Sequence record: PZ445502.1
Length of the DNA: 50,979 bases
Direction: 5' to 3' (one strand)
From: a phage
Translations under genes and position numbers: made by a program
The notes under the pieces: generated by a model
The model's database searches: none
Told to the model about the DNA's origin: nothing
Seen by the model: the letters and a program-made list of their open reading frames with translations, nothing else
Shown here: positions 3,695 to 47,077 of the stretch, piece after piece
How the letters are laid out: each line of letters begins with the position of its first letter
How positions within the stretch are numbered: the first letter of the stretch is position 1

Positions 3695-4810
3695 ATGAAG
3701 GCAAAACAAAGATTTGATAGCGCCAAAGTAAAGGCGCACTTTGATGATAACGGGTTTTTAGTTGATCGCCCTATCGTGGCGCGAATTGGTTTACAAGTCT
3801 ATCAGACTCCTTTCGGTGAGCGCCGAGAATTTCGCCCTGCGTCAGAAGTATTCAAGGCCGACTCGCTCGCCACCTTTGCAGGGAAGCCGGTCACGGTTGG
3901 TCACGTCACGGTAACGCCAGAAAATGCCGAAAAGGTTGTGGTTGGTTCTTGTGCTGGCGCTGGTGTGCCTAACGGGATCGGCGTAGAGGTTCCGTTAAGC
4001 ATTTACTCAAAACGAGCAATCGAAAGCGCAAAGAAGCGAGACACGGCTGAAATTTCAGTTGGTTATACATCGGTTGATATTGATAAACCAGGCTGGGGCA
4101 ATAATAAAACTGGTGAGTATGTTTTCGATGAGGACGTTAGCGAAGACTGGAAACCTGATTCTCCTGATTGGGTTAAGTTTGATGCAATCCAGACTGAAAT
4201 CAAGGTAAACCACATCGCGCTAGTTTTCCGAGGTCGAGCTGGCATTGCAAAATTAAACCTTGATAGCCAGCAAGATTTTCCGTATAGTGACGACGTTATT
4301 AACAACAAAGAGGATCAAATCATGACTGTAAAAATTAAACTGGATGGCGCTGTAGAGTTTGACGTGCCGAAAGCGGTTGCGGATCACATTGAATCACTGA
4401 AAGCTGATACCAAAGCTCAGAAAGAAAAGGCTGACAGCCTTGAAGCTGAGCGAGACGCACTGCAAACCAAAGTAGATGGCATTCAGGATCAGATTGATGC
4501 CGCAGTCAAGAAGGCCAAAGAAGATGCCGAGCAATATGCTCAATTAGTGGCAGACGCTAAAGAGTTAGGCATCAAGTGCGACGGCCTGGATGCGAAAGCA
4601 ATCAAGGTTGCATACATCAAGGAAGTTATGGGCAATGACGTTTCTGATAAAACTGATGCCTATATCGAAACAGCTTTCGACATCGCCAAAAACTCTGATA
4701 AAATGGCGGCGCAGCGTAAGAGCATTAAAGGTGACTCTTTCGCGAATGAAAAGCAGGATGACGCAGGTTCTAAGCTGAATCCTAACGCTCGTTTTGAGAA
4801 ACTGAAATAA
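3695..4810 (+). CDS. putative head scaffolding / maturation protein
   Basis: 371 aa; C-terminal coiled-coil-like K/E/A/D-rich region; located between morphogenesis gene and capsid genes. Confidence 0.45.
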   Translation: MKAKQRFDSAKVKAHFDDNGFLVDRPIVARIGLQVYQTPFGERREFRPASEVFKADSLATFAGKPVTVGHVTVTPENAEKVVVGSCAGAGVPNGIGVEVPLSIYSKRAIESAKKRDTAEISVGYTSVDIDKPGWGNNKTGEYVFDEDVSEDWKPDSPDWVKFDAIQTEIKVNHIALVFRGRAGIAKLNLDSQQDFPYSDDVINNKEDQIMTVKIKLDGAVEFDVPKAVADHIESLKADTKAQKEKADSLEAERDALQTKVDGIQDQIDAAVKKAKEDAEQYAQLVADAKELGIKCDGLDAKAIKVAYIKEVMGNDVSDKTDAYIETAFDIAKNSDKMAAQRKSIKGDSFANEKQDDAGSKLNPNARFEKLK

Positions 4811-5382: not shown

Positions 5383-6165
5383 ATGGCTAAAGATTATTCA
5401 TCTGTTATGGGTCTTTCTTGCCCTGGTTGTTTGGTTGATTCTACTCGCTACAATATTGATGGAACTGGCGTTTGCGGATCTGAGTCGATCATTGCTGGCA
5501 AAGTTGTTTTCTTCAAAGAGAGAGTGGAAGGTTATAACATATTTGTTGATCATAAAGAGTATGATGCTGTGGTTGCTGGTGTTGCTATAAGGAGCAATAT
5601 CACGACAACGGTTAACGAGGAAGACGGATACTCTGACTATAAGGAAGGAGATTCTATCAATATTTTAACAAGAGGGGTTGTATGGTGCTTAACTCAAACG
5701 ATTGAGTCTGCGCCTGAACATGGCGATCTTGTTTATGTTAACAATGATGGTTTTGTAGCAAAAAGTGATGGCGATGAAATCGTCGATGGCTGGATTTTTA
5801 CTGGTGACTTCTACAAGTTTGATGAAACAATGAACATAGTCGGAGTCAGAATAACGCCGCTTCATCATAGAAAATACCTTCTTACTGGTGCGATCATTGA
5901 GGCCGAAGATGGCTACATAGAGGGAACAGAGACGATTAATAACGTTCAATTAAAGGTAACGGTTGTTCCTACTTGGGCTGATGACAAAACGGGTCAGTGG
6001 ACAATTACAAACGAGCAAGATCCAAAGGTTGCCAGCGTTAGCCGTACAGGTCTTGTTGTTCCTACTGGTGTAGGAGGCAGAGTTAACGTCAACTGGACTG
6101 CTAATGATGGTTCTGGAGTTGCTGACCAGTTTGATATTGTATTTACGAAAACCGCTGGCGAATAA
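5383..6165 (+). CDS. head protein, paralog 2 with Ig-like C-terminal region (possible decoration protein)
   Basis: 260 aa; N-terminus similar to 4823..5332; C-terminal beta-rich T/V/G segment. Confidence 0.4.
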   Translation: MAKDYSSVMGLSCPGCLVDSTRYNIDGTGVCGSESIIAGKVVFFKERVEGYNIFVDHKEYDAVVAGVAIRSNITTTVNEEDGYSDYKEGDSINILTRGVVWCLTQTIESAPEHGDLVYVNNDGFVAKSDGDEIVDGWIFTGDFYKFDETMNIVGVRITPLHHRKYLLTGAIIEAEDGYIEGTETINNVQLKVTVVPTWADDKTGQWTITNEQDPKVASVSRTGLVVPTGVGGRVNVNWTANDGSGVADQFDIVFTKTAGE

Positions 6166-6192
6166 CTAATAGCATAAAAAAACATTGCACGT

Positions 6193-6209
6193 TTAACAAA
6201 AAGTGCTAT
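6193..6209 (+). promoter_or_regulatory. conserved motif, opposite orientation (TTAACAAAAAGTGCTAT), upstream of the major capsid gene
   Basis: exact core match; followed by a hairpin with T-run and then GGAGG before ATG 6256. Confidence 0.45.
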
Positions 6210-9900: not shown

Positions 9901-9942
9901 CATTCCTGTAAAATCAATCTATCAAATAAATTAATTCCACTT

Positions 9943-9959
9943 TTAACAAAAAGTGCTAT
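9943..9959 (+). promoter_or_regulatory. conserved motif, opposite orientation, directly upstream of the SD of the tail chaperone gene
   Basis: TTAACAAAAAGTGCTAT followed by AAGGAG and ATG 9974. Confidence 0.45.
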
Positions 9960-15892: not shown

Positions 15893-18800
15893 ATGGCTAA
15901 ATATATGATAAGCGGCAGTAAGGGCGGAAGCAAAAAGCCATACGTGCCAAAAGAGATGGAAGATAACCTGATCTCGATAAACAAGATTAAAGTTTTGCTG
16001 GCTGTATCTGATGGCGAGTGCGATCCAGATTTCACGTTGCGCGATCTTTATCTTGATGATGTTCCGGTTATTGCCAGCGATGGCACTGTTAACTACGAGG
16101 GAGTTACGGCTGAATATCGACCGGGTACGCAGACGCAAGATTACATCCAGGGTTTTACTGACACATCAAGTGAGGTGACAGTTGCAAGAGATATTACCGG
16201 AGACAATCCTTATGTTATTTCTGTTACAAATAAAAATCTATCTGCGGTAAGAATAAAGATCCTGATGCCAGTAGGCATAAAACAGGAGGATAACGGCGAT
16301 CTTGTTGGCGTAAGGGTTGAGTATGCCGTAGATATGGCTATTGATGGCGGTTCTTATAGCGAGGTTATGAGAGATGTAATTGACGGCAAGACAAGATCAG
16401 GATACGACCGCAGCAGAAGGATTGATCTTCCTAAGTTTGATGAGCGCGTTTTAATCCGAGTAAAGCGACTGACTCCAGACAGCACATCTTCAAAGGTAAC
16501 TGATAAAATCAAGCTGCAAAGTTACGCTGAGGTTGTTGATGCAAAATTCCGTTATCCTCTGACTGGCCTTGTATTCGTAGAATTTGACAGTGAATTGTTT
16601 CCTACGCAAATCCCTAACATTTCTATAAAAAAGAAATGGAAGATTATTAATGTGCCAAGCAACTATGATCCAATATCAAGAGAATATCACGGGTCATGGG
16701 ATGGGACTTTTAAAAAAGCGTGGTCAAATAATCCCGCTTGGGTTCTTTATGATCTGGTGACAAATCAGCGTTATGGACTTGATCAGCGAGAGTTAGGAAT
16801 ACAGATCGACAAGTGGAGCTTATACGAGGCGGGCGTTTACTGTGATCAGAAAGTTCCAGACGGTAAGGGCGGTACTGAGCCTCGCTACCTATGCGATGTG
16901 GTGATTCAGAATCAAGTTGAGGCTTATCAGCTAATCCGTGACATTTGCTCAATCTTTCGCGGAATGAGTTTTTGGAATGGTGAGAGCTTATCAATCGTGA
17001 TTGATAAGCCACGCGATCCATCATACGTGTTTACTAATGAAAACGTCATCAACGGTGATTTTCAGTACACAACCGCAAGCGAAAAAAGCATGTACACGCA
17101 GTGTAACGTGACGTTTGACGACGAACAAAACATGTATCAGCAGGACGTAGAGGGTGTTTTTGATACTGAGGCGGCATTACGATTTGGATACAATCCAACA
17201 AGCATTACAGCGATCGGGTGCACACGCAGGAGCGAAGCGAATCGTCGCGGTCGGTGGGTTTTGAAAACAAACCTTAGAAGCACTACTGTAAACTTTGCTA
17301 CCGGACTAGAGGGGATGATTCCATCAATAGGTGATGTTATTGCTATCGCTGATAATTTTCAGAGTAGCAACCTAACGTTAAACCTATCGGGCCGAGTAAT
17401 GGAAGTTTCAGGATTGCAGGTTTTCGTTCCGTTTAAGGTTGATGCTCGCCCTGGTGATTTTATTATCATCAACAAGCCGGACGGCAAGCCAGTTAAGCGC
17501 ACGATCTCAAAGGTTAGCGCAGACGGAAAAACCATAGAGTTAAATATTGGATTTGGTTTTGATGTTAAGCCTGATACTGTTTTTGCGATTGACCGTACTG
17601 ATCTTGCGTTGCAGCAATACGTTGTGACAACTATCAGCAAGGGTGATGACGAAAACGAGTTTACCTATTCAATCACGGCTGTGGAGTACGATCCGAACAA
17701 ATACGACGAGATTGATTATGGCGTAAACATTGATGACAGGCCGACTTCAATTGTTCAGCCTGACGTGATGGCAGCGCCTGAGAACGTTAAGATCTCATCT
17801 TATTCTCGCGTCGTGCAGGGCGTTAGCGTTGAGACTATGGTTGTTTCATGGGATAAGGTTCCTTACGCATCGCTTTATGAAATGCAGTGGCGAAAAGGTG
17901 ATGGTAACTGGCTGAATACGCCGCAGACCGCTAACAAAGAGATAGAGGTAGAAGGGATTTATTCAGGCAACTACCAAGTAAGGGTGAGATCCGTTTCTGC
18001 AAGCGGTAACGCTTCCCCGTGGTCAAAGATTGCAACCGCCACTCTGACAGGTAAAGTTGGCGAGCCAGGAGCGCCGATTAATCTTACGGCTTCTGATAAT
18101 GAAGTTTTTGGCATTCGTGTCAAATGGGGTATGCCGGAAGGATCAGGCGATACGGCTTACATTGAGCTTCACCAATCGCCAGACGGAACGGTTGAAAACT
18201 CAAGTCTGCTTACGCTGATTCCATATCCTCAATATGAGTATTGGCATAGCACGTTACCAGCGGGGCAAGTTGTATGGTATAGAATCCGCAGCGTTGACAG
18301 AATAGGCAACGTTTCCAGTTGGACTGACTTTGTTCGCGGTATGGCGTCAGATGATGTTGAATCTGTTTTGGGCGACATTCTGGACAAGATTTTTGATACA
18401 GAAGCTGGTCAAGAAATCAAAGAGAACGCCATAGACAGCGCCAATAAAATCAAAGACCAGGCACAATCAATCATACAGAACGCGTTGGCAAATGATGCAG
18501 ATGTGAAGTGGACGCGAGTGCAAAACGGAAAGCGCAAGGCTGAATATGGTCATGCTCTTGAGCTTATCGCCAATGAAACAGAAGCGCGCGTAACTCAAAT
18601 CGAAGAGTTAAGGGCATCAATTGATGGCGAGATAACATCAAGCATCAAGACAGTGCAGGAGGCAATTGCCACTGAATCAGAGACGCGAGCGACTCAAATT
18701 CAGCAGCTTGATTCTAAATTCACAAAAGAAATCGACGGCGTGCGCAAGGATACTTCTGCAAGCATTAGCGATGTAAGGCAGACAATCACTAACGAGTCAG

Positions 18801-19471
18801 AAGCGCGCGCTCAGGCCGTTCAGCAGCTTGACGCTAAGTTCACGAAAGAGATAAACGACCTTGACGGAGTTATCAAAACAGAAGTCGAGGCTAACATCTC
18901 AGAAGTGAAACAGGCGATCGCCAATGAGACAGAGGCAAGGGTTCAGGCTGACCAGGCATTAACAGCACGATTTGGCGACGTTGAATCTGCATTGGTTGAA
19001 AAGTTGGATTCTTGGGCGAGCGTTGATTCAGTTGGCGCTAAATACGCTATGAAGCTTGGCCTTACTTACAAAGGCCAGCAATACAGCGCAGGAATGGTGA
19101 TGCAGCTTTCGCAGGGTTCATCCGGCCTTATCTCGCAAATTTTGTTTGATGCTAACAGGTTCGCCATTATGACTAGCTCTACTGGAGGGACTTTTACTTT
19201 GCCTTTCGTGGTTGAGAATAATCAGGTTTTCATTAATAGTCTTTTGGTTAAGAACGGTTCAATCACTAATGCGATGATTGGTAATGTGATTCAGTCAAAC
19301 AACTTTGTTCAAAACCAGCAAGGATGGAGGCTTGATAAAAACGGAATCTTTGAGAATTACGGATCAACGCCAGGAGAAGGAGCTACTAAATTCACCAATG
19401 AGGGATTGAAGGTAAAAGATGCAAACGGAGTATTGAGGGTTGAAGTCGGAAGGATTACCGGAAGCTGGTAA
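15893..19471 (+). CDS. central tail fibre / host specificity protein (lambda gpJ-like)
   Basis: about 1192 aa from ATG 15893 (track begins at TTG 15842); fibronectin-III-like segments; four ~33-aa repeats near the C-terminus; last gene of the tail module. Confidence 0.8.
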   Translation: MAKYMISGSKGGSKKPYVPKEMEDNLISINKIKVLLAVSDGECDPDFTLRDLYLDDVPVIASDGTVNYEGVTAEYRPGTQTQDYIQGFTDTSSEVTVARDITGDNPYVISVTNKNLSAVRIKILMPVGIKQEDNGDLVGVRVEYAVDMAIDGGSYSEVMRDVIDGKTRSGYDRSRRIDLPKFDERVLIRVKRLTPDSTSSKVTDKIKLQSYAEVVDAKFRYPLTGLVFVEFDSELFPTQIPNISIKKKWKIINVPSNYDPISREYHGSWDGTFKKAWSNNPAWVLYDLVTNQRYGLDQRELGIQIDKWSLYEAGVYCDQKVPDGKGGTEPRYLCDVVIQNQVEAYQLIRDICSIFRGMSFWNGESLSIVIDKPRDPSYVFTNENVINGDFQYTTASEKSMYTQCNVTFDDEQNMYQQDVEGVFDTEAALRFGYNPTSITAIGCTRRSEANRRGRWVLKTNLRSTTVNFATGLEGMIPSIGDVIAIADNFQSSNLTLNLSGRVMEVSGLQVFVPFKVDARPGDFIIINKPDGKPVKRTISKVSADGKTIELNIGFGFDVKPDTVFAIDRTDLALQQYVVTTISKGDDENEFTYSITAVEYDPNKYDEIDYGVNIDDRPTSIVQPDVMAAPENVKISSYSRVVQGVSVETMVVSWDKVPYASLYEMQWRKGDGNWLNTPQTANKEIEVEGIYSGNYQVRVRSVSASGNASPWSKIATATLTGKVGEPGAPINLTASDNEVFGIRVKWGMPEGSGDTAYIELHQSPDGTVENSSLLTLIPYPQYEYWHSTLPAGQVVWYRIRSVDRIGNVSSWTDFVRGMASDDVESVLGDILDKIFDTEAGQEIKENAIDSANKIKDQAQSIIQNALANDADVKWTRVQNGKRKAEYGHALELIANETEARVTQIEELRASIDGEITSSIKTVQEAIATESETRATQIQQLDSKFTKEIDGVRKDTSASISDVRQTITNESEARAQAVQQLDAKFTKEINDLDGVIKTEVEANISEVKQAIANETEARVQADQALTARFGDVESALVEKLDSWASVDSVGAKYAMKLGLTYKGQQYSAGMVMQLSQGSSGLISQILFDANRFAIMTSSTGGTFTLPFVVENNQVFINSLLVKNGSITNAMIGNVIQSNNFVQNQQGWRLDKNGIFENYGSTPGEGATKFTNEGLKVKDANGVLRVEVGRITGSW

Positions 19472-20694: not shown

Positions 20695-20740
20695 ACTATA
20701 CACGATCTTGGGCATCGCGTTTAGCAAAAAGTGCTATTTG
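20695..20740 (-). promoter_or_regulatory. motif-class promoter (motif, ~21 nt, TATAGT) reading toward the lipoprotein operon
   Basis: minus strand reads AATAGCACTTTTTGCTAAAC then 21 nt then TATAGT. Confidence 0.5.
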
Positions 20741-21105
20741 TTATTTTTTGTTTTCCGGTGTTATCGAATTTAAGACGGCGTAAATTTAGCGCAAATTTTA
20801 TCCAACACAAGAACAATAAACAATCAATAAAATAGATATATACATATAAAATCAATAGTTTATTTATTTATGTATGTATATTTGTTTTTTCTTGTTGTCT
20901 GCGTTTCTTGTGGTTTTGGTTGTTTGTGGTGATTTTTCTTTCTGAGTATCTGTATGTGCCATCATTCATGTGTATGTATATAATCCGGCGTATCTGAGAG
21001 AACAGGGGAACAAGAAAAATAACACATATTAATCATTAACTTATGAGTCAAATCTGTTTTCTTGCCATCTGAGAACGTTTAGAAAACAGAAAAAACAAAA
21101 CAGCT

Positions 21106-21134
21106 ATTGACTAAATCAACCAAATGGCTACAAT
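21106..21134 (+). promoter_or_regulatory. sigma70-like promoter (TTGACT-N16-TACAAT)
   Basis: near-consensus hexamers at canonical spacing about 30 nt upstream of ATG 21165. Confidence 0.5.
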
Positions 21135-21164
21135 GCACGCATAAAGCAACAAGGAGCATTAAAG

Positions 21165-23480: not shown

Positions 23481-24215
23481 GTCTAACGTGGTTGGTTTGT
23501 TTACCAGTGCCGCTACAACCGCTTTTAGCTCGTCAATTTCTTTTCTCATCTCATCGTTTTCCGCTTTCAGTTTCTTAACGTGGTGAATCAGTGGAACAGT
23601 TAGGCGGTCATACATAACGCCTTCCGCCACCATGCCATTACTTGAAGCAATGGCAGGATCTTCTCCTTCTTGCAGCGGTCGCCAGTGAACGTACTCCGGA
23701 GCAATTTCTCCAACCTCTTCCGCGATTAGCCCGTACCATCCCCAATCTTTACGGTCGCTTTCACAAGTTGACCGATACCACACAGGACGCATTTCAAGCA
23801 TCAGATCCGCATATTCATCAATAACCGATTCTACGCTGCGCTTATAACGAGAAGAGGAAGTTGAGCGTAAAACTTGCGACACTCCAGCATTTGGATCAAG
23901 CCATAAGTTTGCTGATTGAGCGGTTGTGTTAATATTAAATAAATAAAATGCATCGTTACCAGTTAGGGGGTAAAAACTCCCACTATACCTTCCGCTACCC
24001 AACTCGGATGATAGATCAGTTTGTTTTAGATACGGTTTCAACTTATTGTCAACATCAGCAGTTGATGCTTTTCCTGCAACATCCTGTTTTAGTGTCGAAA
24101 CATCACTTTTCAGCTTCGTTATATCACCAGGAATAGTAGCAACATCCTGTTTTATCGTAGAAACATCATTTTTCAGCTTCGTTATATCACTAGGTATAAC
24201 AGTGACTGTAGCCAT
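23478..24215 (-). CDS. short tail fibre with C-terminal intramolecular chaperone (peptidase S74-like) domain
   Basis: 245 aa; two tandem 21-aa repeats at the N-terminus from a ~63-bp DNA repeat; C-terminal region resembling the self-cleaving fibre chaperone domain. Confidence 0.55.
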   Translation of the reverse strand: MATVTVIPSDITKLKNDVSTIKQDVATIPGDITKLKSDVSTLKQDVAGKASTADVDNKLKPYLKQTDLSSELGSGRYSGSFYPLTGNDAFYLFNINTTAQSANLWLDPNAGVSQVLRSTSSSRYKRSVESVIDEYADLMLEMRPVWYRSTCESDRKDWGWYGLIAEEVGEIAPEYVHWRPLQEGEDPAIASSNGMVAEGVMYDRLTVPLIHHVKKLKAENDEMRKEIDELKAVVAALVNKPTTLD

Positions 24216-24506: not shown

Positions 24507-26482
24507 TATACAATTTCCCCCAATTGATGATCTGTTAGTGCCTTGTGCCATATACGGAAGTTTCTAACGTGCCCGAAAAGATGGCGTTCGCCCGTAGTTG
24601 TTTGTCCGCCAATCCTTATAGTAGCCGTTGATTCTATGTATCTCCATTCCGTTTTTGTTTCGCTTGATATTCTGGCATTACTTACACAGCAATTATTGTA
24701 ATCACTCTTTACTCTCATTCCCATGATCATCTTTTTTAGTTTTGCATTCTCGTAAACCCTTCTGTTTGATCCACCTATATCGCAATAAGGGAATCCATCA
24801 TTATCGCCCTCGGCAGATCCGAAAGCAAGAATAATTGCCGCACCAGATTGATGACCTACAGTATCAAAAACACGAGGCGCAGCATTTGGCGTTATACTCC
24901 AGTTTTTATTAGCTTCCACAAGAACTGTAAACGGCAAATTGTAAAGGTTGTTTTTTATTGGCACTGAAACCATATCGCTTGCCCTTGTTACTGGATTTTC
25001 TTCTGTAATTATGAAAGAAGAGGCACAAGATCCTCCCTCAACTTGTGGAGTTGCAATATAAATGTAATCATCCGCGCCAGTGCCCACTCCTTTTGCCGGG
25101 GCATACTGAACCATTCCACCTATCATATTTTCTGTATCAAGTGCCTTAATTGTCGCCTCAAAAAAGATCCATTTGCTTGCTTCATCTTTAACAGCCCTTG
25201 CAGTAATACGATTTGCAGCGACGCCAGTTTTTTCAATTGATAAATCTGTCAGATTTACGTAAGCATCACCCAAAAATGCATAAGCAGATCCATCGTAGTT
25301 TTCAAATCGTAATCGGCATCTTAAATTTGGAGTCCCACTTTGCGCCCTGCATGATATGGTTACATACTTTTCATTTCCTGTTACATCAAAACCTCTACTG
25401 CCGGAAACGGTTACTATGTTAATCGCTGAAGTTTGCCCTACCATTTCTGGTTTTAATGTAAATTTTGCGTACTGGAATCCGAAATTATCCACACCTGATC
25501 TAGCTAAGATCATATTTGATGACTTGTTCCATTTTGAAGGATTGACGCTATTTATAAGAAGGTTTGTTCTTTGCCCCTCAATGAGCAGACCATCCTTTTC
25601 AAATCTAGGTTCATCAATAGCAGCATTAGTAAGCACCCCAGACTTATTAATGTAAGTAGCGGTTGATGCGCGTTTAAACTTAACAATCTTGTCACCTGGC
25701 ATCGTGATCTCATCGTCACCTATAACAATCTTTTTATATGACGGAGAGAATCCGGTGATCATATCCAGGGAATCATTAAACGGTATCCACACGTCCGGCA
25801 ACGGTTGCAATAAATCTTTGTAAGGTTCTGCGGCCTGCTTTGCGTATTCCTCCGCTTGATCTCGCGCACTTTCAGCTCCTGCCTTTGCAGTGTTCGCAGC
25901 GTCACGCGCGGATTCAGCGCCTTTTCTTGCAGTTTCAGCGCCAGTCTTTGCAGTGTTTGCAGCGTCGCGCGCGGATTCAGCGGCAGCCTTTGCAGTGTCA
26001 GCACCTTTCTTGCTATTCTCTGCATTTGTTGCGCTTGTCTTTGCGTTATTCTCGCTAGTTTTAGCTGCCTTCTGGCTTGCTGCGGCTGCGTCAGCATTTG
26101 TCTTTACGTCTTCCTGGATCTTCTGTAGCTTATCCCAATCAAAATCCTTGATGATCTCAATAAATCCAGCAAACTCCGATTCCTTCCCCTGGTAATAACG
26201 CAACGTTTCCGCTACGTCTTGCGCAAGACCGTCAACCGTTAACGAGTCATGAAGCAAGATCAGGTAATTTGTCTTCTGTACTACCGCGCCGCCAGTAGTA
26301 ATTGCGCGAATGCTTGTATCGCTAATCACTTCTGTAATCACAGCAGCTTGCAAAGGTTGAGAAAGAAAGAAAATAGTTGCACCTGGGCGAATCAAGGTTA
26401 ATTGCTCACGCCATTTTGTACCGTAACCAGTTACATATCCTTGCGCGTCCATAGACGCTTGGCCTTGTCTGTAAATCGCCAT
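24506..26482 (-). CDS. long tail fibre protein with Ala-rich repeat region
   Basis: 658 aa from ATG 26482 with AGGAGG SD (track begins at 26506); N-terminal region with repeated AKxxAExARDAANTAK units; beta-rich C-terminal part. Confidence 0.55.
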   Translation of the reverse strand: MAIYRQGQASMDAQGYVTGYGTKWREQLTLIRPGATIFFLSQPLQAAVITEVISDTSIRAITTGGAVVQKTNYLILLHDSLTVDGLAQDVAETLRYYQGKESEFAGFIEIIKDFDWDKLQKIQEDVKTNADAAAASQKAAKTSENNAKTSATNAENSKKGADTAKAAAESARDAANTAKTGAETARKGAESARDAANTAKAGAESARDQAEEYAKQAAEPYKDLLQPLPDVWIPFNDSLDMITGFSPSYKKIVIGDDEITMPGDKIVKFKRASTATYINKSGVLTNAAIDEPRFEKDGLLIEGQRTNLLINSVNPSKWNKSSNMILARSGVDNFGFQYAKFTLKPEMVGQTSAINIVTVSGSRGFDVTGNEKYVTISCRAQSGTPNLRCRLRFENYDGSAYAFLGDAYVNLTDLSIEKTGVAANRITARAVKDEASKWIFFEATIKALDTENMIGGMVQYAPAKGVGTGADDYIYIATPQVEGGSCASSFIITEENPVTRASDMVSVPIKNNLYNLPFTVLVEANKNWSITPNAAPRVFDTVGHQSGAAIILAFGSAEGDNDGFPYCDIGGSNRRVYENAKLKKMIMGMRVKSDYNNCCVSNARISSETKTEWRYIESTATIRIGGQTTTGERHLFGHVRNFRIWHKALTDHQLGEIV

Positions 26483-27573: not shown

Positions 27574-28050
27574 TTAGCTATTTGTGCTGTTATCACCTTT
27601 GTAGAATCGTCCGCCTGGTTCGTAGTCTGAATTCTTGACTACGCGCAACATTTCGTATTTGTCGCAACGGGTAGTAAGAGGCTTACCGTTAGAATCAAAC
27701 CGCAGATCTGGACGACAAAATGATGCGCGGTATCCTTTGCATCCATTATATTTGTAGTCGTTATGCACCTTTTGTGCTCCAGCGGCTGAAATCATACCAC
27801 GCTTTCGCCATTGGTTAACGACTTGCTGAGATACGCGTAGACGTCGAGCCATAGCAGGAACACCGCCATAATACTCGATCAGAATATCCAAGCGAGATTT
27901 CAGGCTTGCTTTTACCTCATCTCGCAGGATAAGAAATCCGGTTCGGTGTTTTCGTGGCTTTTTGTCTTTACCTCGTCGCGTTCCGTTGTTACCGTTAATA
28001 GTGCGCTTGTCGATCTCACCCGTAGACACCGCAATTCGTGCATCTTTCAT
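27574..28050 (-). CDS. putative HTH DNA-binding protein
   Basis: 158 aa; helix-turn-helix-like segment VPAMARRLRVSQQVVNQWRKRG; GAGGTGA SD. Confidence 0.4.
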   Translation of the reverse strand: MKDARIAVSTGEIDKRTINGNNGTRRGKDKKPRKHRTGFLILRDEVKASLKSRLDILIEYYGGVPAMARRLRVSQQVVNQWRKRGMISAAGAQKVHNDYKYNGCKGYRASFCRPDLRFDSNGKPLTTRCDKYEMLRVVKNSDYEPGGRFYKGDNSTNS

Positions 28051-28061
28051 CTAGTCACCTC

Positions 28062-28105
28062 ATAGCATTTTTTGTTAAAACAGTTTATTGTAATGAGTCT
28101 ATTAT
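28062..28105 (+). promoter_or_regulatory. motif-class promoter (motif, ~21 nt, TATTAT) for the helicase operon
   Basis: ATAGCATTTTTTGTTAAAAC then TATTAT; the same element lies just upstream of the SD of the divergent HTH gene. Confidence 0.5.
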
Positions 28106-28137
28106 ATACTCCAAATGGCATTTTTTAAAGGTTTAAG

Positions 28138-31603: not shown

Positions 31604-31643
31604 CACTTTTTGTTAAAACGCCCGGCCTAGTGTCGGGCATAAT
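31599..31643 (+). promoter_or_regulatory. motif-class promoter (motif, 22 nt, CATAAT)
   Basis: GCCCGGC...GTCGGGC inverted repeat in the spacer. Confidence 0.5.
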
Positions 31644-35052: not shown

Positions 35053-35374
35053 CGCCCATCTCCCCTATTCTAGCCATATCCCTGATCCAGTCGTTGCGCA
35101 TACCATCCAGGCTATACAATTCGAATCCGAAAGGCCGCTTTGACGATCCTTTGGACCAGTATTTTCCGCAGACTCCATCTATATAACCAGCCGTCATCAT
35201 TCTTGCGCAAAATTCCTTAGATGCAAGGCTGGCGAACATTCGCGGCGTAAGTCCGGCGGCCCGTGCGAGCCGCTCACATTCTCTATGCTGATAGATAAAT
35301 TTGGCTATGTGCTGCCTGTTAAACCAATCGTATGACTCACACCATTTATACAGATCAAGCAAAAACATAATCAT
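34979..35374 (-). CDS. hypothetical protein
   Basis: 131 aa; ATGA-type coupling to the upstream NTPase gene. Confidence 0.45.
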   Translation of the reverse strand: MIMFLLDLYKWCESYDWFNRQHIAKFIYQHRECERLARAAGLTPRMFASLASKEFCARMMTAGYIDGVCGKYWSKGSSKRPFGFELYSLDGMRNDWIRDMARIGEMGDDELFQAKANRQDLEALRRKFNIT

Positions 35375-36951
35375 CCCAGCAGTATTGGATTGACAAAAAT
35401 AACACCATTAATCACACAAACATAATTTCTTTCTTCCAGCATTGGCAGTAAGTGCCCTTCTATCCTTTTCATTACGCCAGCCTGACCAACGAAAGGTTTT
35501 ACCTTTCTCGCTGATTCGTACAGGGCGCGAATATTCAGGATCCCTTTGTTAGCCTTGCCGTGCCTCGTGATCAATTCAATCAATTTACCCATTTCAGCAT
35601 CATCACCAGCATAACCAGAAGCATTGGCGGCGCTAATGTATGTTTTGCTCAATTCCTGAAACATGATCAACGCCTCTTGCATTGTTTCCACGTCGATCTC
35701 TTTCGACTTCTGCGGGTATCCGGCAGGATTAAACCAGTTACGGATAACATGCAGGACGGAAGCAAGCCTGATCACCTGTTTATCCATTTTACCCAGCGCA
35801 CCGCGTAACATTGTATGAGAATACTTTCCTCCGTCTGCAAGATGCGGTTCCATATCCTGGCGAGCAATGTTGAGCACTCGCATAGCTGAACGGCTTATTT
35901 TCAGCGATATATTTGATTCGCTCATGATGTTATGCACCAATTGATAATATTGGGCTTTCAATTCAGAATCCACCGCCTCATAGGTAGAATCACCATTTTC
36001 ATCAATGAATGAGCGACGGCCTAAGAATGATTCCTCGCGGACCAACAAAAAACGCTCACTAACACCGATGCCTCGCGAACCAGCGTCCATGATTCCGCTT
36101 ATCGTTTCATCCTGGGCTATAACGCTCATACATCCAAGCGCGCGAAAACTCATATTATTGTCAGCATTAGCACGGGCAATTGATACGTGACCATTATCCC
36201 ACGCCTTAAGCACTAACTCACTGTTAGTCTTCCTTTCGCTATTTGCATAGGTCAAACCTAACAGACTGTTAATACTTGTTGCTTCATCAGAAATTACGGC
36301 AAAGTTACCTTGCTTGTTGTTGATTTTCGCCAAGCCTTCTGGAGTTGTATCTGAAACAGGAAAAGTTATATCACACATTTTTTCCAGCTTTTCCTCCAGA
36401 TCCTCTTTTTCCTGGTATAGAGATTCCATATCAGCGCCGGATCTTTCGCTTTTCATCTCCTTTGCAAGACCTGCCAGCTTTGCCTGTATTTTCTTTCTTT
36501 CCTTGCGGCGTTGCTCGTTGATCTTCTCAACTTCCGCAATCATCGGAGCAATAGCCATGCTGTTGATCGCAGATTTACCAGTTGACGGCGGCTGGCTTGT
36601 AACGACGTAAAGCGCAGTCGGCTGATCGGTTCCGTGATAGTCAACCGTAAAGCGTCCAAGCATAGCGGCAGAAATGCAGCCGATAAAGTGCATGTAAGCC
36701 GATGATTCAGGGAATTGAACGGATCGCGCAATGCTGCGTGATAACTTGCCGACAACATCAATATCATTACCAAGAGAAATAACGGGGTAGCGATCGTGAC
36801 CGCTATTCACATCCTTTACGTCGCCCCAAAAGCTGGACGACTGGCGATAGCCGTTAGCCTGAATTGATACGCGAACTGGTGAAAGGTTCTGGCTTTCAGC
36901 CATAGCGATTATTTGCTGTGGAGTTAATTTGTTCGTTTCTAATGAAAACAT
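35371..36951 (-). CDS. P-loop NTPase of unknown function
   Basis: 526 aa; Walker A SQPPSTGKSA and Walker B-like FAVISDEAT; AAGGAG SD; largest early gene. Confidence 0.55.
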   Translation of the reverse strand: MFSLETNKLTPQQIIAMAESQNLSPVRVSIQANGYRQSSSFWGDVKDVNSGHDRYPVISLGNDIDVVGKLSRSIARSVQFPESSAYMHFIGCISAAMLGRFTVDYHGTDQPTALYVVTSQPPSTGKSAINSMAIAPMIAEVEKINEQRRKERKKIQAKLAGLAKEMKSERSGADMESLYQEKEDLEEKLEKMCDITFPVSDTTPEGLAKINNKQGNFAVISDEATSINSLLGLTYANSERKTNSELVLKAWDNGHVSIARANADNNMSFRALGCMSVIAQDETISGIMDAGSRGIGVSERFLLVREESFLGRRSFIDENGDSTYEAVDSELKAQYYQLVHNIMSESNISLKISRSAMRVLNIARQDMEPHLADGGKYSHTMLRGALGKMDKQVIRLASVLHVIRNWFNPAGYPQKSKEIDVETMQEALIMFQELSKTYISAANASGYAGDDAEMGKLIELITRHGKANKGILNIRALYESARKVKPFVGQAGVMKRIEGHLLPMLEERNYVCVINGVIFVNPILLG

Positions 36952-37652: not shown

Positions 37653-37699
37653 GATTATGCCAGGTTTTTACACCTGGCTTTTAACAAAAAGTGCTATTT
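37653..37699 (-). promoter_or_regulatory. motif-class promoter (motif, 22 nt, CATAAT)
   Basis: GCCAGGT...ACCTGGC inverted repeat abutting the -10 box. Confidence 0.5.
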
Positions 37700-40595: not shown

Positions 40596-40849
40596 TTTTT
40601 CTTCTCCTGCAATAAGCAAACATCATTGATAAAATCAGCACGGCCCTTAATGTTGCTGATGTGGAACGTCTTTTCAGCGTACAGGCCATTACCTTCAATC
40701 ACGATCATTACGCGAGTCGGTTTATTCACGGGCGCACGAGAAAAGGGTTGGCGCACCGGAAGAAATTTAGTCATCACATCCAGGTTAGAACTGGCGGCCC
40801 TGCAAAATGCCTCCGCCAGATCCAAATCATTTTCGGTAATCACCGCCAT
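40583..40849 (-). CDS. hypothetical protein
   Basis: 88 aa from ATG 40849, TAATG overlap with the upstream stop. Confidence 0.4.
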   Translation of the reverse strand: MAVITENDLDLAEAFCRAASSNLDVMTKFLPVRQPFSRAPVNKPTRVMIVIEGNGLYAEKTFHISNIKGRADFINDVCLLQEKKKCWM

Positions 40850-41121
40850 TACTTCTTGATCTCCTTGCTGATAAATTTCAGCACCTGGCGCAAGAAAACC
40901 TCGTTGTTGATAGTCGCTGGCAATTCTTCTTTCACTTCTTGCGGCAGATAGATATTGCCGTGCCAGGTCAAGCAATCGTAGTTGATACGATAAGAGCAAA
41001 GCCACTCGCAATCGTTATCTGCTTCCCAAATGCAGAGTTGCAGAACATCGCCAAAATCTTCAACAGTCAGATCCAGACCGTGACGCTTAGCGAAATTGAA
41101 AGTGGTTTTGCTGATGTTCAT
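40849..41121 (-). CDS. hypothetical protein, first gene of the minus-strand early operon
   Basis: 90 aa; GGAGA SD. Confidence 0.45.
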   Translation of the reverse strand: MNISKTTFNFAKRHGLDLTVEDFGDVLQLCIWEADNDCEWLCSYRINYDCLTWHGNIYLPQEVKEELPATINNEVFLRQVLKFISKEIKK

Positions 41122-41152
41122 TGCTATCTCCTGTGCGGTTCGTTTCGATGTG

Positions 41153-41200
41153 TGTAATGTACCCGATCAGGTGGCCTGAGTTTTAACAAAAAGTGCTATT
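41153..41200 (-). promoter_or_regulatory. motif-class promoter (motif, 22 nt, TACATT) at the head of the minus-strand early operon
   Basis: minus strand AATAGCACTTTTTGTTAAAAC then 22 nt then TACATT. Confidence 0.5.
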
Positions 41201-41754
41201 TGACGGTTAGCGCCAGGATTGCGATCGAAATAATCAAAAGTAATCATTCGTAATCAAATCACGTCAAAATGATGATTGCCTTTGCAAATTTGATGAGAAA
41301 AGTAATCACGTTTAATCATTGGTTGCAGGGGAGATAGTGAAACCCTCCCCTCTTGCCTCACTTTTTCGCCTGGCTGTCAGTGGTTGTTGTCTTTTGTTCA
41401 CCCCTGTTACCGATTTCAGGCGGCGTGTTTCCGCGCGGTTTTCCGGTGTAGCGAAAACGGAAAAAACAAAGAAAATCCTCTATAATACATTGAAAATAAA
41501 GATTATTTATTTATATATATCTATAATGTTTTCTTTTTGTTCTCACTGTTACAGTGCTTTTTGTTGGTTATGGTGTGGTTGTGTGTGGGTATATATGGAT
41601 AGTTGCGCGCGCGGCGGATTGCATATGTATATATACTTTTTCCGGCGGATTGCGTTAACAGAGTGAACAGAAAAATAACAGCCGCGAAATCAATAACTTG
41701 CGCATGATTTTGTAGTTTTTCGATATTGGTAACGTTTTGAATACAACAAAAACA

Positions 41755-41783
41755 TTGACACGCACCAAATAGCTTTTATAATG
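41755..41783 (+). promoter_or_regulatory. sigma70-like promoter (TTGACA-N16-TATAAT) for the plus-strand early operon
   Basis: consensus hexamers at canonical spacing about 30 nt upstream of ATG 41814. Confidence 0.55.
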
Positions 41784-41813
41784 CGCCAACAGTCAACAAC
41801 TGGAGGAAAGGAA

Positions 41814-42278
41814 ATGGAACAGAAGACCACTAAGGACTATTGCGATTGGCTTCGCGAGCTTGGTCGCCGCCTGGCTAGTGGCGATATTGAAGAGTATAAA
41901 ATGTCACTAATTGACCTGGCCGGAATGTTAAGCGGTGACGACTGCTACAAGATCACGCGCAGTTCATCCTACAGCCGGACCATTATCAACCGCGTTCCAG
42001 AAGTAAGGGCCGCAGGTCGGGTAAGCATCAAGGTAGAGGAAACGGAAGATGATAAATTTTACGTTTTCCGCATGGTCCGCGAATCGAAAAGGAAAATCAT
42101 CACACCCGAAGAATTGCCAGCCATCAAGGCAAGGGCGATCAAAAAGTTTGCCGATCGCATACTGGCAGCAATCCCGAATATCGTTGACCTGGAAGGGGAT
42201 AAACTGGCTGGGGCTTGCGAGGGCGTAAGCCGCTACCAGGATATGATCCGCGAAATCATCAAAGAGGAAGAGCAATGA
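41814..42278 (+). CDS. hypothetical protein, first early gene
   Basis: 154 aa from ATG 41814 with GGAGG SD. Confidence 0.45.
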   Translation: MEQKTTKDYCDWLRELGRRLASGDIEEYKMSLIDLAGMLSGDDCYKITRSSSYSRTIINRVPEVRAAGRVSIKVEETEDDKFYVFRMVRESKRKIITPEELPAIKARAIKKFADRILAAIPNIVDLEGDKLAGACEGVSRYQDMIREIIKEEEQ

Positions 42279-42547: not shown

Positions 42548-42587
42548 CACTTTTTGTTAAAACGCCAGGCGCGAAGCCTGGCATAAT
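42543..42587 (+). promoter_or_regulatory. motif-class promoter (motif, 22 nt, CATAAT)
   Basis: GCCAGGC...GCCTGGC inverted repeat abutting the -10 box. Confidence 0.5.
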
Positions 42588-45526: not shown

Positions 45527-45566
45527 CACTTTTTGCAAAAACAGATTATCGGGCTTGCGGTATAGT
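45522..45566 (+). promoter_or_regulatory. motif-class promoter (TTGCAA variant, 22 nt, TATAGT)
   Basis: GGGCTT...AAGCCC inverted repeat encloses the -10 box. Confidence 0.5.
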
Positions 45567-47036: not shown

Positions 47037-47077
47037 CACGAATTGCTAAACGCGGGGTTATCGGCCCCGCTATAATG
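47032..47077 (+). promoter_or_regulatory. motif-class promoter, GAATTG variant (22 nt, TATAAT)
   Basis: GCGGGG...CCCCGC inverted repeat abutting the TATAAT. Confidence 0.5.

What the first reader, a model, noticed from the sequence alone, without database searches (positions are those of the whole stretch)
41201..41813. Second copy of the AT-rich element, with a consensus sigma70 promoter and a hairpin, heading both early operons
This 600-bp noncoding region lies between the divergent minus-strand (40849..41121 onward) and plus-strand (41814 onward) early operons. It contains the repeat blocks described for 20.7-21.2 kb, a hairpin AGGGGAG-atagtgaaacc-CTCCCCT near 41325-41350, a TG-rich tract GTTGGTTATGGTGTGGTTGTGTGTGG, and a near-perfect TTGACA-N16-TATAAT at 41755-41783. 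Leftward transcription instead starts from a motif-class promoter at 41153-41200. One side therefore uses a canonical host promoter and the other the phage motif, which hints at a temporal switch.
Basis: partly seen in the sequence, partly recalled or inferred. Interest (0 to 1): 0.6.

Follow-up and report, generated by a model that had tools for sequence, protein, structure and literature searches.

The report
T1-like phage central control region
This 0.7-kb gene-free stretch of a T1-like coliphage is its main control region, combining divergent early promoters, the probable DNA-packaging start and one of two copies of a family-wide AT-rich module that is a good, untested candidate for the still-unknown replication origin.

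Summary
The window is a T1-like phage (Drexlerviridae, Warwickvirus), and 41122-41813 is a non-coding gap between divergent operons. Its right 430 bp (41384-41813) is a true paralogue of 20738-21164: z = 25.6, and a leave-window-out HMM finds only these two sites (E ~1e-37). All seven Drexlerviridae genomes examined carry the same two-copy module, and the copies are their two most AT-rich loci.

TTGACA-N16-TATAAT (41755-41782) is the only 12/12 sigma70 match in the window and corresponds to published promoter P01 of phage TLS. The leftward promoter is a copy of the known 21-nt 'DR' repeat. That repeat sits exactly 19 nt from a -10 hexamer in 87 of 119 copies.

The hairpin is neither significant nor conserved.

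New points:
- Covarying inverted repeats flank the TA-rich core of the module.
- A B-only 180-bp insert carries five helically phased TAATCA repeats. It lies where the pac end was mapped in T1 and TLS.

Best reading: a composite hub of divergent early promoters, a pac-proximal array and a probable replication origin. The origin role is inferred, not shown.

The parts
40849..41121 (-). First gene of the leftward early operon (90 aa, unknown function)
   Evidence: ORF list; phrog_6147, E 5e-44. ATG at 41119-41121 and SD GGAG at 41128-41131. Annotated as a CDS in FritzSarasin and atuna.
41156..41199 (-). Leftward DR-class promoter. DR ATAGCACTTTTTGTTAAAA at 41181-41199, a 19-nt spacer holding the small inverted repeat TCAGG-TGG-CCTGA (41167-41179), and the -10-like TACATT at 41156-41161.
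   Evidence: Exact match to the published TLS consensus. The 19-nt DR-to--10 register is shared by 14 of 19 window copies and 87 of 119 copies in seven genomes. Coordinates checked.
41202..41383 (.). B-only segment, absent from copy A. Candidate pac / terminase-recognition region. Five TAATCA repeats, all on the + strand, at 41231, 41241, 41251, 41303 and 41313 (10-bp phasing).
   Evidence: Not aligned to copy A. 5 of the window's 52 TAATCA lie in 88 bp, against about 0.09 expected. TGATT/AATCA words: 7 against 0.9 expected, also enriched in T1, TLS and LL5. Position 1 of the T1 and TLS records (the mapped pac end) falls in the homologous segment. TLS HindIII at 5876 and EcoRV at 2733 fit the published 6-kb and 2.7-kb pac fragments.
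41327..41351 (.). Not supported as a structure.
   Evidence: DNA fold -6.1 kcal/mol, z -0.7, 35 of 200 shuffles as good. Two uncompensated changes in atuna; not conserved in WaterSpirit or W011D. No T-run follows, so it is not terminator-like.
41384..41813 (+). Copy B of the family-wide AT-rich module, including the sigma70 promoter at its right end
   Evidence: Pairwise z 25.6. Leave-window-out HMM, E 8.5e-38. Second most AT-rich 300-bp window of the genome, tied for most TA steps. Matches across about 200 Drexlerviridae records.
41395..41411 (+). Left repeats TGTTCACC (41395-41402) and TGTTACC (41405-41411), 10 bp apart
   Evidence: TGTTCAC occurs only 4 times in the window. Two are in B, inverted, flanking the core (41395 + and 41663 -). 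The left-right inverted-word excess over 17 elements is 49 against 12.2 +/- 4.6.
41479..41527 (+). Most conserved core: TCTATAATACATTGAAAATAAAGATTATTTATTTATATATATCTATAAT. It holds a TATAAT box without a -35 (41481-41486) and a TA tract (41511-41527).
   Evidence: Near-invariant in Warwickvirus and W011D. This is the part that matches distant genera in BLAST. Half of all TATATA hexamers of each genome lie in the two modules.
41563..41589 (+). TG-rich tract GTTGGTTATGGTGTGGTTGTGTGTGGG
   Evidence: Homologous TG-rich tract in copy A. In the central 220 nt, T>A in 13 of 14 elements and G>C in 11 of 14.
41613..41653 (+). Direct repeat GGCGGATTGC (41613-41622 and 41644-41653) around the palindrome GTATATATAC (41627-41636)
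   Evidence: GTATAT/ATATAC is the most enriched non-pure-AT hexamer in the modules (6 of 13 in the genome, p 1e-7).
41655..41681 (+). Right repeats TTAACAG / GTGAACAG / ATAACAG at 9-11 bp spacing, inverted relative to the left repeats
   Evidence: Same block in copy A (GAGAACAGGGGAACAAGAAAAATAACAC).
41688..41700 (+). IHF-core-like site AATCAATAACTTG
   Evidence: Exact match to WATCAANNNNTTR. Only 6 occur in the window, one of them in copy A at 20850. The block AAATCA..ACTT is conserved in A and B of several genera. Suggestive only.
41731..41782 (+). Rightward early promoter: A-rich upstream stretch (41731-41753), TTGACA 41755-41760, 16-nt spacer, TATAAT 41777-41782
   Evidence: 12/12, the only such site in the window. 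Conserved in atuna, WaterSpirit and W011D. Positional homologue of TLS P01.
41802..42278 (+). SD GGAGGA (41802-41807) and first gene of the rightward early operon (ATG 41814, 154 aa, unknown function)
   Evidence: phrog_4841, E 1e-31.
20695..21164 (+). Copy A of the same cassette. Leftward DR (20719-20737, -) with TATAGT (20695-20700, -), the AT-rich module at 20738-21164, and the sigma70 promoter TTGACT-N16-TACAAT (21107-21134) heading the recE-like / ERF operon.
   Evidence: Downstream genes identified.

Best explanation
41122-41813 is the central non-coding control region of a T1-like phage. It has three layers.

(1) A divergent promoter cassette. A consensus sigma70 promoter (41755-41782) lets unmodified host RNA polymerase start the rightward early operon straight after injection. 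The leftward operon starts at a DR-class promoter (41156-41199). This class has a -10 hexamer but no usable -35, so it probably needs a phage factor bound at about -50 to -32. My candidate is the Cro-like HTH protein (27574-28050), which is made from a third sigma70 promoter.

(2) A B-only 180-bp insert (41202-41383) with five helically phased TAATCA repeats. This is the likely recognition region for terminase at pac, from which headful packaging runs rightward.

(3) A ~430-bp AT-rich module, present twice per genome (here and at 20738-21164) throughout the family. I read it as a replication origin: a TA-rich unwinding core flanked about 260 bp apart by covarying inverted repeats. In this model the repeats are bound in opposite orientations by the phage's MCM/Orc-like AAA+ helicase through its winged-helix domain. 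Negative supercoiling from the divergent promoters would help melting. Priming would be by the P4-alpha-like primase and extension by host polymerase.

Shown: the anatomy, the paralogy, the family-wide conservation, the promoter geometry and the position of the published pac coordinates. Inferred: which proteins bind what, origin activity, and the timing.
For: Paralogy and conservation:
- z 25.6 for copy A against copy B.
- The leave-window-out HMM hits only the two sites.
- The two copies are the two most AT-rich 300-bp windows in all 7 genomes, covering 6 genera.
- Half or more of each genome's TATATA hexamers lie in them.

Inverted repeats:
- 49 left-block 7-mers have a reverse complement in the right block, against 12.2 +/- 4.6 in shuffles.
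- The shared word differs by phage: TGTTCAC, TGTTAT, TGTAACC, GTTCACGA, TCCGCGGAAA, TGTTCGCGC.
- Two of the window's four TGTTCAC flank the core of B in inverted orientation.
- Phage-specific words are enriched in both copies: T1 GTTACA p 9e-10, Rtp TCCGCG p 6.5e-9.

Replication proteins:
- The primase is homologous to the P4 alpha N-terminus, E 7e-17.
- The DUF3987 helicase model (pLDDT 88) has a C-terminal winged-helix topology. Its best PDB matches are MCM2-7 subunits, with Cdc6/Orc1 on origin DNA also matched.
- No origin has been reported for TLS or SU57.

Promoters. In the HTH-helicase gap the only conserved motif is a DR, and the two opposing -10 boxes overlap at 28100-28106.

pac.
Against: - There are no experimental data for this phage, and I found no published transcriptome or origin mapping for any T1-like phage.
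- In the window the iteron-like words are not enriched genome-wide. The left-right symmetry is individually weak for B (P 0.10) and A (P 0.05), and is strong only when pooled.
- The module is always fused to, and co-oriented with, a sigma70 promoter, so it could be purely transcriptional.
- The P4 resemblance is a 7-nt word. The HMM finds nothing in P4, and neither the helicase nor the HTH protein is sequence-related to the P4 alpha helicase or origin-binding domain.
- The pac mapping in T1 and TLS is at restriction-fragment resolution, and the exact TLS base was chosen by likeness to P22 pac.
- Many GenBank records simply copy the T1 orientation, so their start positions add nothing.
Confidence: 0.45

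Rival explanations
1. The AT-rich module is only an extended upstream regulatory region of the two strongest early sigma70 promoters. It would consist of curved or UP-like DNA, an IHF-type bend and operator sites. In this reading the covarying inverted repeats are operators for the Cro-like regulator, which loops the DNA and shuts off (or boosts) early transcription. No origin function.
For: - The HMM match runs from the left block through to the promoter, and the module is always co-oriented with a sigma70 promoter.
- There is an A-rich stretch just upstream of the -35 and an IHF-core match.
- A Cro-type HTH protein is encoded and conserved family-wide.
- Repeats 260 bp apart fit a repression loop as well as they fit an origin.
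Against: - The third sigma70 promoter (28101-28128) works from an 87-bp gap with no such module.
- More than 300 bp of conserved upstream DNA and the extreme TA-step content are more than known phage early promoters need (from my own knowledge of T5, T7 and lambda).
- The recognition helix of the HTH protein varies, while the DR, its other candidate target, is nearly invariant. The protein's target is therefore unresolved.
Confidence: 0.3
2. The AT-rich core itself is the packaging site, with terminase cutting in the easily melted TA tract. Copy A would then be a second or decoy pac site.
For: The mapped pac ends of T1 and TLS lie within the homologue of B at a resolution of perhaps +/-150 bp. 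SU57 read coverage changes abruptly in the same untranslated region.
Against: - TLS shows a single sub-molar pac fragment.
- Copy A lacks the phased TAATCA/GATT array that distinguishes B.
- A second pac site 20 kb away would give a second packaging series, which has not been reported.
Confidence: 0.1
3. The conserved core encodes a small non-coding RNA or a small protein. It would be transcribed from the -35-less TATAAT box at 41481-41486 and end at the terminator-like CACTGTTACAGTG-CTTTTTGTTG (41544-41566).
For: - TATAAT(AC) is the best conserved block across genera.
- A terminator-like site follows about 60 nt downstream.
- A 115-codon frame is open across the region.
Against: - No Rfam family matches.
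- The hairpin is absent from copy A and from other genera.
- The open frame is not conserved in frame, strand or position in any relative.
- Sequence that is 65-70% A+T with TA repeats has little folding potential.
Confidence: 0.07

Closest known systems
Left-end intergenic region of coliphages T1 and TLS (TLS promoter P01, repeat DR18, mapped pac site)
   Same: Homologous region in the same gene context. It has the same sigma70 promoter heading the rightward small-gene operon and the same 21-nt DR heading the leftward operon. The pac coordinate lies inside it.
   Different: - Sequence identity outside the core blocks is only about 60-70%.
- The published descriptions treat the promoter, DR and pac separately.
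- In what I could read, they do not mention the duplicated AT-rich module, its inverted repeats, or the fixed 19-nt DR-to--10 register.
- The TLS authors list the DR function as an open question and report finding no iteron-type origin repeats.
Satellite phage P4 ori plus crr (type 1 repeats TGTTCACC bound by the alpha primase-helicase)
   Same: - Two cis elements per genome.
- Short TGTTCAC(C)-type words at 9-11 bp spacing next to AT-rich DNA (P4 record; window 41395-41402 and 41663-41670).
- The window primase is homologous to the alpha primase domain.
   Different: - No detectable DNA homology.
- P4 has 6-10 exact copies per element, whereas the window has one inverted pair plus degenerate copies.
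- The arms are about 260 bp apart rather than clustered.
- The helicase is an MCM/Orc-like DUF3987 protein, not the D5-type alpha helicase, and lacks the Pox_D5 origin-binding domain.
Origins built from initiator sites in inverted orientation around an unwinding element (SaPI/PICI ori; SV40 core origin; paired ORC sites for head-to-head MCM loading). Recalled from my own knowledge, not tested here.
   Same: Inverted binding-site sets flank easily melted AT-rich DNA, and the phage encodes an AAA+ helicase with a winged-helix domain.
   Different: - The spacing is much larger.
- No binding or unwinding data exist.
- The module is fused to promoters on both sides.
pac sites made of short repeated words (P1 hexamer arrays with Dam sites, SPP1 pacL/pacR, P22 pac). 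Recalled from my own knowledge.
   Same: A helically phased array of a 6-nt word (TAATCA x5) sits at the place where relatives start packaging. GATC sites are moderately enriched there in T1, TLS and LL5.
   Different: - The site lies about 8 kb upstream of the terminase genes, not within or beside terS.
- The word differs between genera.
- The window has only one GATC in the segment.
Activator-dependent promoters that lack a -35 (T4 MotA/AsiA middle promoters; class II activator sites centred near -41.5). Recalled from my own knowledge.
   Same: A good -10 hexamer, no -35 at 16-18 nt, and a conserved upstream box at fixed distance.
   Different: - The box spans about -50 to -32 (the MotA box is centred at -30).
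- The sequence is unrelated.
- The spacer often holds a GC-rich inverted repeat whose sequence varies.
- No activator has been identified.

Membership tests
Sigma70-type promoter | -35 TTGACA and -10 TATAAT hexamers separated by 16-18 nt, upstream of a gene with a ribosome-binding site | tested here: met
   12/12 with a 16-nt spacer at 41755-41782, SD 41802-41807, ATG 41814. Conserved in three relatives. Equivalent to TLS P01.
Sigma70-type promoter | Transcription start in vivo or in vitro with host holoenzyme alone | not testable with these tools
   No transcript data were found for any T1-like phage.
DR-class ('21-nt repeat') promoter of T1-like phages | Match to aaATAGCACnnnTTGnTAAAA, oriented with the downstream gene | tested here: met
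   Exact match at 41181-41199(-). There are 22 matches in the window against 2.7 expected. Consensus taken from PMC11447400.
DR-class ('21-nt repeat') promoter of T1-like phages | -10-like hexamer at a fixed distance downstream (a register found in this study) | tested here: met
   TACATT lies 19 nt after the DR. The same offset occurs in 14 of 19 window copies and 87 of 119 copies in seven genomes.
   -6.1 kcal/mol, z -0.7, 11-nt loop, no T-run. The changes in atuna are uncompensated.
Iteron-type replication origin | Markedly AT-rich unwinding element | tested here: met
   The two modules are the two most AT-rich 300-bp windows in 7 of 7 genomes, and they hold at least half of all TATATA hexamers.
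Iteron-type replication origin | Several copies of a short initiator-binding word, helically phased, beside the AT-rich element | tested here: inconclusive
   - The left-right inverted words covary across phages: pooled 49 against 12.2 +/- 4.6.
- Enrichment is strong in T1 and Rtp.
- In the window only one exact inverted TGTTCAC pair plus degenerate copies are present, with no genome-wide enrichment.
Iteron-type replication origin | A cognate initiator protein with a DNA-binding domain encoded by the element | tested here: inconclusive
   The DUF3987 helicase is predicted to be an AAA+ protein with a C-terminal winged helix. It is MCM/Orc-like by Foldseek (E 3e-5, prob 1.0). No binding data exist.
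Iteron-type replication origin | Replication initiates there, or the element supports autonomous replication | not testable with these tools
   Needs marker-frequency, 2D-gel or plasmid-ori assays.
P4 ori/crr family | Clusters of 6-10 TGTTCACC type 1 repeats and an alpha protein with a Pox_D5 origin-binding domain | tested here: not met
   - There is one exact TGTTCACC in B and none in A.
- The module HMM does not hit P4.
- No Pox_D5 domain is found in the window helicase C-terminus, whereas P4 alpha has it.
- Only the primase domain is shared.
Headful pac site | First packaging cut mapped to the site | tested here: inconclusive
   Met only by homology. The T1 and TLS records are numbered from the mapped pac end, which lies inside the homologue of B. 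The TLS restriction sites fit the published fragments. There are no terminus data for this phage.
Headful pac site | Repeated short words suited to small-terminase binding | tested here: met
   Five TAATCA repeats on one strand at 10-bp phasing within 88 bp, against about 0.09 expected. GATT-type words are enriched in the same segment of T1, TLS and LL5.
Known RNA families (Rfam 15) | Covariance-model match at gathering score | tested here: not met
   No match anywhere in the window.

The most novel reading that the evidence does not exclude
T1-like phages, which lack a DNA polymerase and have no identified origin, would replicate from two paralogous origins. Each origin is embedded in a divergent promoter cassette. 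In each, an MCM/Orc-like AAA+ helicase with a winged-helix domain is loaded head-to-head on covarying inverted repeats either side of a TA-rich core. Loading is helped by transcription from the flanking promoters, or by an R-loop started at the conserved -35-less TATAAT box and stabilised by the G/T-rich tract. One of the two origins has additionally captured the pac site. Early transcription, replication start and packaging start would then be physically coupled in one 0.7-kb region.
Probability: 0.3. Interest if true: 0.7.

Novelty: new member of a known kind. Interest (0 to 1): 0.5.

Why it matters
T1 is one of the seven classical T phages, and its relatives are common therapy candidates and laboratory contaminants. 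Even so, their origin of replication, their transcription programme and the role of the 21-nt repeat remain open. The 2024 TLS re-annotation lists the repeat as an unanswered question and reports finding no origin-type iterons.

This analysis makes those questions testable:
- The repeat is a promoter element in fixed register with a -10 box.
- Only three promoters look usable by unmodified host polymerase, and one of them makes a Cro-like regulator.
- Two precisely delimited, family-wide modules are the obvious places to look for replication initiation.
- A phased repeat array marks the likely pac recognition site.

The same coordinates are useful for engineering, for example in deciding where not to insert payloads and what a minimal replicon or packaging signal might need.

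Tried and rejected
- **Rfam scan of the whole window:** nothing.
- **Hairpin as a structure:** rejected on energy and lack of covariation.
- **Coding potential of the gap:** the 115-codon open frame and smaller ORFs are not conserved.
- **Concerted evolution of copies A and B:** not supported. Within-phage identity is 66-74%, about the same as between-phage same-type identity.
- **Exact TGAACA/TGTTCA enrichment:** weak or absent in most genomes. TLS GTGAAC is not significant after correction.
- **Sequence homology of the DUF3987 helicase or the HTH protein to the P4 alpha helicase or origin-binding domain, or to any solved structure:** none.
- **IHF core sites:** not enriched genome-wide (6 against 4.3 expected).
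- **GenBank record start positions as independent pac evidence:** rejected, because starts differ widely and authors state they copy the T1 orientation.
- **IMG/VR search with the first rightward gene:** only two loci. One call failed on a frame error.
- **Literature searches for T1-like transcriptomes, origin mapping or the motif:** only the TLS and SU57 papers were relevant. One search was wasted on unrelated hits. The BASEL, LL5, KanT1 and O157-phage papers add nothing on this region.
- **The Rtp genome paper and the 2004 T1 genome paper:** could not be read. The basis of T1's position 1 is therefore taken from the GenBank feature table only.
Full report
**Identity of the window.** The region is 98-99% identical to Escherichia phages SECphi27, vB_EcoS-95 and FritzSarasin, which belong to Drexlerviridae, Tempevirinae, Warwickvirus. 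The window is therefore a T1-like virulent siphophage of about 51 kb. These phages have no RNA polymerase or DNA polymerase of their own (PMC11447400).

**Check of the observation.** Reading the sequence confirms each item.
- The gap 41122-41813 lies between a minus-strand gene (ATG 41119-41121, SD GGAG 41128-41131) and a plus-strand gene (SD 41802-41807, ATG 41814).
- The inverted repeat AGGGGAG / CTCCCCT is at 41327-41333 / 41345-41351.
- The TG-rich tract is at 41563-41589.
- TTGACA-N16-TATAAT is at 41755-41782.

The promoter is the only 12/12 match in the region and in the whole window. No ORF in the gap is conserved in relatives, and no Rfam family matches.

The 'second copy' claim is correct and strong.
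- 20740-21164 against 41384-41813 gives a local score of 88, against 21.8 +/- 2.6 for dinucleotide shuffles. The best other tile of the window scores 33.
- A profile built only from six other phages finds exactly these two places in the window (E about 1e-37 each, both on the + strand).

The hairpin is the one item that fails. It folds at -6.1 kcal/mol and 35 of 200 shuffles do as well. Phage atuna carries two uncompensated changes, and WaterSpirit and W011D lack it.

**The promoters.** The 19-21-nt motif is the published 'DR' repeat of TLS, consensus aaATAGCACnnnTTGnTAAAA. Its function is stated to be unknown. The window has 22 matches against 2.7 expected.

I find that a -10-like hexamer starts exactly 19 nt after the motif in 14 of 19 window copies. 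The same offset holds in 87 of 119 copies across seven genomes, with 8 at 18 nt and 3 at 20 nt. The motif is therefore a promoter element in fixed register. Its TTGnTA lies 22 nt from the -10, too far to serve as a -35, and the motif spans roughly -50 to -32. That fits an activator site (inference).

The copy in the finding is DR 41181-41199(-), then 19 nt, then TACATT 41156-41161(-), then SD, then ATG.

Sigma70 matches of at least 10/12 that sit in a sensible intergenic context are few:
- 41755-41782, heading the rightward early operon;
- 21107-21134, heading the recE-like/ERF operon;
- 28101-28128(-), heading the HTH-primase operon;
- one at 4260 in the structural region.

The first three are the positional equivalents of the only three sigma70 promoters reported for TLS: P01, P51 and P57.

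The third makes a Cro-type HTH protein (Pfam/PDB; model and Foldseek). This protein is confined to Drexlerviridae-sized contigs and has an invariant basic N-terminal arm. In the 87-bp gap between its gene and the divergent helicase gene, the only recognisable motif is a DR. The leftward TATAAT (28101-28106) overlaps the rightward DR-linked TATTAT (28100-28105). The TLS coordinates give the same overlap. This layout suggests, but does not show, that the HTH protein is the DR-binding factor.

One correction is needed: the rightward operon also has six internal DR promoters. The contrast is therefore between the first promoter and the rest, not between the plus and minus strands.

**The duplicated module.** I compared the window with T1, TLS, Rtp, LL5, Salmonella phage STSR3 and Klebsiella phage K50PH164C1.
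- Every genome has the module twice, in the same orientation. One copy lies before the recE-like operon and one before the rightward early operon.
- In all seven genomes the two copies are the two most AT-rich 300-bp windows, and nearly always the two richest in TA steps.
- They hold half or more of all TATATA hexamers of the genome.
- BLAST finds the core in about 200 records from Escherichia, Klebsiella, Salmonella, Citrobacter, Enterobacter and others.

The order of blocks is shared:
1. left repeats (TGTTCACC, TGTTACC);
2. a GC-rich word (GGCGGCGT);
3. an A-rich run ending in a -35-less TATAAT(AC);
4. a TA tract;
5. a T/G-rich tract;
6. a second TA box (GTATATATAC, flanked in B by two copies of GGCGGATTGC);
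7. right repeats (TTAACAG, GTGAACAG, ATAACAG);
8. an IHF-core-like block;
9. an A-rich stretch;
10. the sigma70 promoter.

The duplicated unit also includes the leftward DR promoter, so the unit is a complete divergent promoter cassette.

Copies A and B are old paralogues rather than recently homogenised ones. B-type copies of distant genera share their own motif, TGTATAGCGTGT, which Warwickvirus lacks.

**Inverted repeats.** Words in the left block recur as reverse complements in the right block about 260 bp away. Over 17 elements there are 49 such 7-mers, against 12.2 +/- 4.6 in shuffles (maximum 29 of 300). The shared word changes from phage to phage:
- TGTTCAC in window B;
- TGTTAT in window A;
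- TGTAACC and GTGTTAATC in T1;
- TGTTCAC plus TGTTCCA in TLS A;
- GTTCACGA in TLS B;
- TCCGCGGAAA in Rtp;
- TGTTCGCGC in WaterSpirit.

In the window, TGTTCAC occurs only four times. Two of these flank the core of B in inverted orientation. Phage-specific words are strongly enriched in both copies of T1 (GTTACA, p 9e-10) and Rtp (TCCGCG, p 6.5e-9). In the window and TLS the enrichment is not significant after correction.

Covariation between two arms too far apart to pair implies a protein that reads both arms (inference).

**Which protein, and why an origin.**
- The window encodes a primase homologous to the primase domain of P4 alpha (E 7e-17).
- It also encodes a DUF3987 helicase.
- The helicase model (pLDDT 88) shows an AAA+ core and a C-terminal helix-strand-helix-helix-strand-strand unit, which is a winged-helix topology.
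- Its best PDB matches are MCM2-7 subunits, and Cdc6/Orc1 bound to origin DNA is also matched.

P4 is the nearest described system. Its GenBank record annotates TGTTCACC 'type 1 repeats' at 9-11 bp spacing in two separate cis elements, ori and crr. However, the P4 family test fails here.
- There is no DNA homology.
- There is only one exact octamer.
- There is no Pox_D5 origin-binding domain.
- There is no similarity between the helicases.

No origin has been identified for TLS or SU57.

Taken together, the features fit a replication origin better than any other single role:
- extreme and conserved TA richness;
- inverted covarying sites on both flanks;
- a helicase of the initiator/MCM type with a DNA-binding domain;
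- divergent promoters that would underwind the DNA between them;
- the absence of any other candidate.

I put this at somewhat under one half. The module is always attached to a sigma70 promoter, and a purely transcriptional role (an operator loop for the Cro-like protein, or an upstream activating region) explains much of the same evidence. Against that rival, the third sigma70 promoter has no such module.

**The B-only segment and pac.** In T1 the record is numbered so that position 1 lies between ST1 (start 48674, minus) and ST77 (start 539). Bases 1-2800 are annotated as the repeat region, that is, the terminal redundancy. In TLS, position 1 lies between gp86 and gp01.

[quoted passage not shown] The record has HindIII at 5876 and EcoRV at 2733. 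Position 1 is therefore the mapped pac end, and packaging runs rightward. The SU57 paper reports an abrupt coverage change in the same untranslated region and says pac lies there in T1-like phages.

In both T1 and TLS, position 1 falls in the segment between the leftward DR promoter and the shared module. That is the homologue of 41202-41383, which is rich in GATT/AATC words.

In the window this segment holds five TAATCA repeats, all on one strand, at 41231, 41241, 41251, 41303 and 41313. About 0.09 would be expected in 88 bp. A phased array of this kind is what small terminases or initiators bind (from my own knowledge of the P1, SPP1 and P22 pac sites). Given the mapping in relatives, I assign it to pac recognition.

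The limits are the coarse resolution of the mapping and the fact that the exact TLS base was picked by likeness to P22 pac.

**Verdict.** It is worse in another, the hairpin. The promoter reading agrees with published annotation of a relative.

Not described in the papers I could read:
- the two-copy, family-wide module with covarying inverted repeats;
- the fixed DR-to--10 register;
- the phased TAATCA array.

All are of known kinds (promoter, origin-like element, pac-like array), so this is a new member rather than a new kind. Its value lies in making the open questions about T1-like replication, transcription timing and packaging directly testable.

Noticed in passing
window 6191-6209 (-) and 9941-9959 (-): Two good DR copies lie in the plus-strand structural gene region but point the opposite way. 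No gene follows them, and the -10-like hexamer is not at the usual 19-nt offset. Their role is unclear; antisense promoters or relics are possible.
   Followed up: partly
window, DR spacers e.g. 31619-31638, 42563-42582, 37659-37678, 47052-47070, 45547-45565: The 19-nt spacer between the DR and the -10 box is often filled by a GC-rich inverted repeat (-12 to -16 kcal/mol). The sequence differs between copies but the pairing is kept. Read on the opposite strand, stem plus TTTTAAC looks like a terminator. Unexplained.
   Followed up: partly
window 28051-28137: This 87-bp gap lies between the Cro-like HTH/primase operon and the SNF2-type helicase gene. The leftward sigma70 -10 (TATAAT, 28101-28106) overlaps the rightward DR-linked -10 (TATTAT, 28100-28105), and the DR lies in the leader of the HTH transcript. 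The TLS coordinates (P57 / DR11) show the same overlap. It looks like a built-in either/or switch.
   Followed up: partly
window 35371-36951 (-): The DUF3987 'DNA helicase' is predicted with high confidence to be an AAA+ protein with a C-terminal winged helix. Its best structural matches are eukaryotic/archaeal MCM subunits, with Cdc6/Orc1 also matched, not bacterial DnaB- or P4-type helicases.
   Followed up: partly
window 27574-28050 (-): The Cro-like protein has a disordered N-terminal arm that is invariant across the family (D14, R16, N19-G20-N21-N22, R26, D29, R33), and a conserved C-terminal GYRASFCRPDLxFDxNGK motif, neither of known function. Its stop overlaps the primase start by 23 nt.
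   Followed up: partly
L002 (T1), L004 (TLS), L010 (STSR3), L011 (K50PH164C1): B-type modules: The motif TGTATAGCGTGT (TGTATAGCTCGT in K50) is conserved just after the TA tract in the B copies of four distant genera. It is absent from A copies and replaced by CACTGTTACAGTG in Warwickvirus.
   Followed up: no
L005 (Rtp) modules A and B: All three CCGCGG (SacII) sites of the Rtp genome, and 7 of its 16 TCCGCG words, lie in the two modules, arranged as TCCGCGGAAA on both flanks.
   Followed up: partly
window 41319-41666 (+): A 115-codon open frame (TTG start, Cys/Trp/Tyr-rich product) runs through the AT-rich core. This is unusual for such composition, but it is not conserved in any relative. Several GenBank records annotate 3-5 small 'hypothetical proteins' here, probably overcalls.
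   Followed up: yes
window 24076-24198, 25866-25991, 18566-18941: Tandem 63-nt repeats lie inside the minus-strand tail-fibre region, and a four-fold repeat with about 100-130 nt period lies in the tail region. These are probably repeated protein modules.
   Followed up: no
public records MG065641-MG065685 ('Campylobacter phage') and ON843697 ('Pseudomonas phage Motto'): These records match the core of a coliphage-type Drexlerviridae module at about 79-82% identity. The host labels look doubtful, possibly through contamination with T1-like phages.
   Followed up: no
window 41563-41589 and 20920-20950; TLS A, K50 A: The T/G-rich tracts contain GGTGG / TGGTGG words that resemble part of the E. 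coli Chi sequence GCTGGTGG. No exact Chi was looked for, and any relation to RecBCD is speculation.
   Followed up: no
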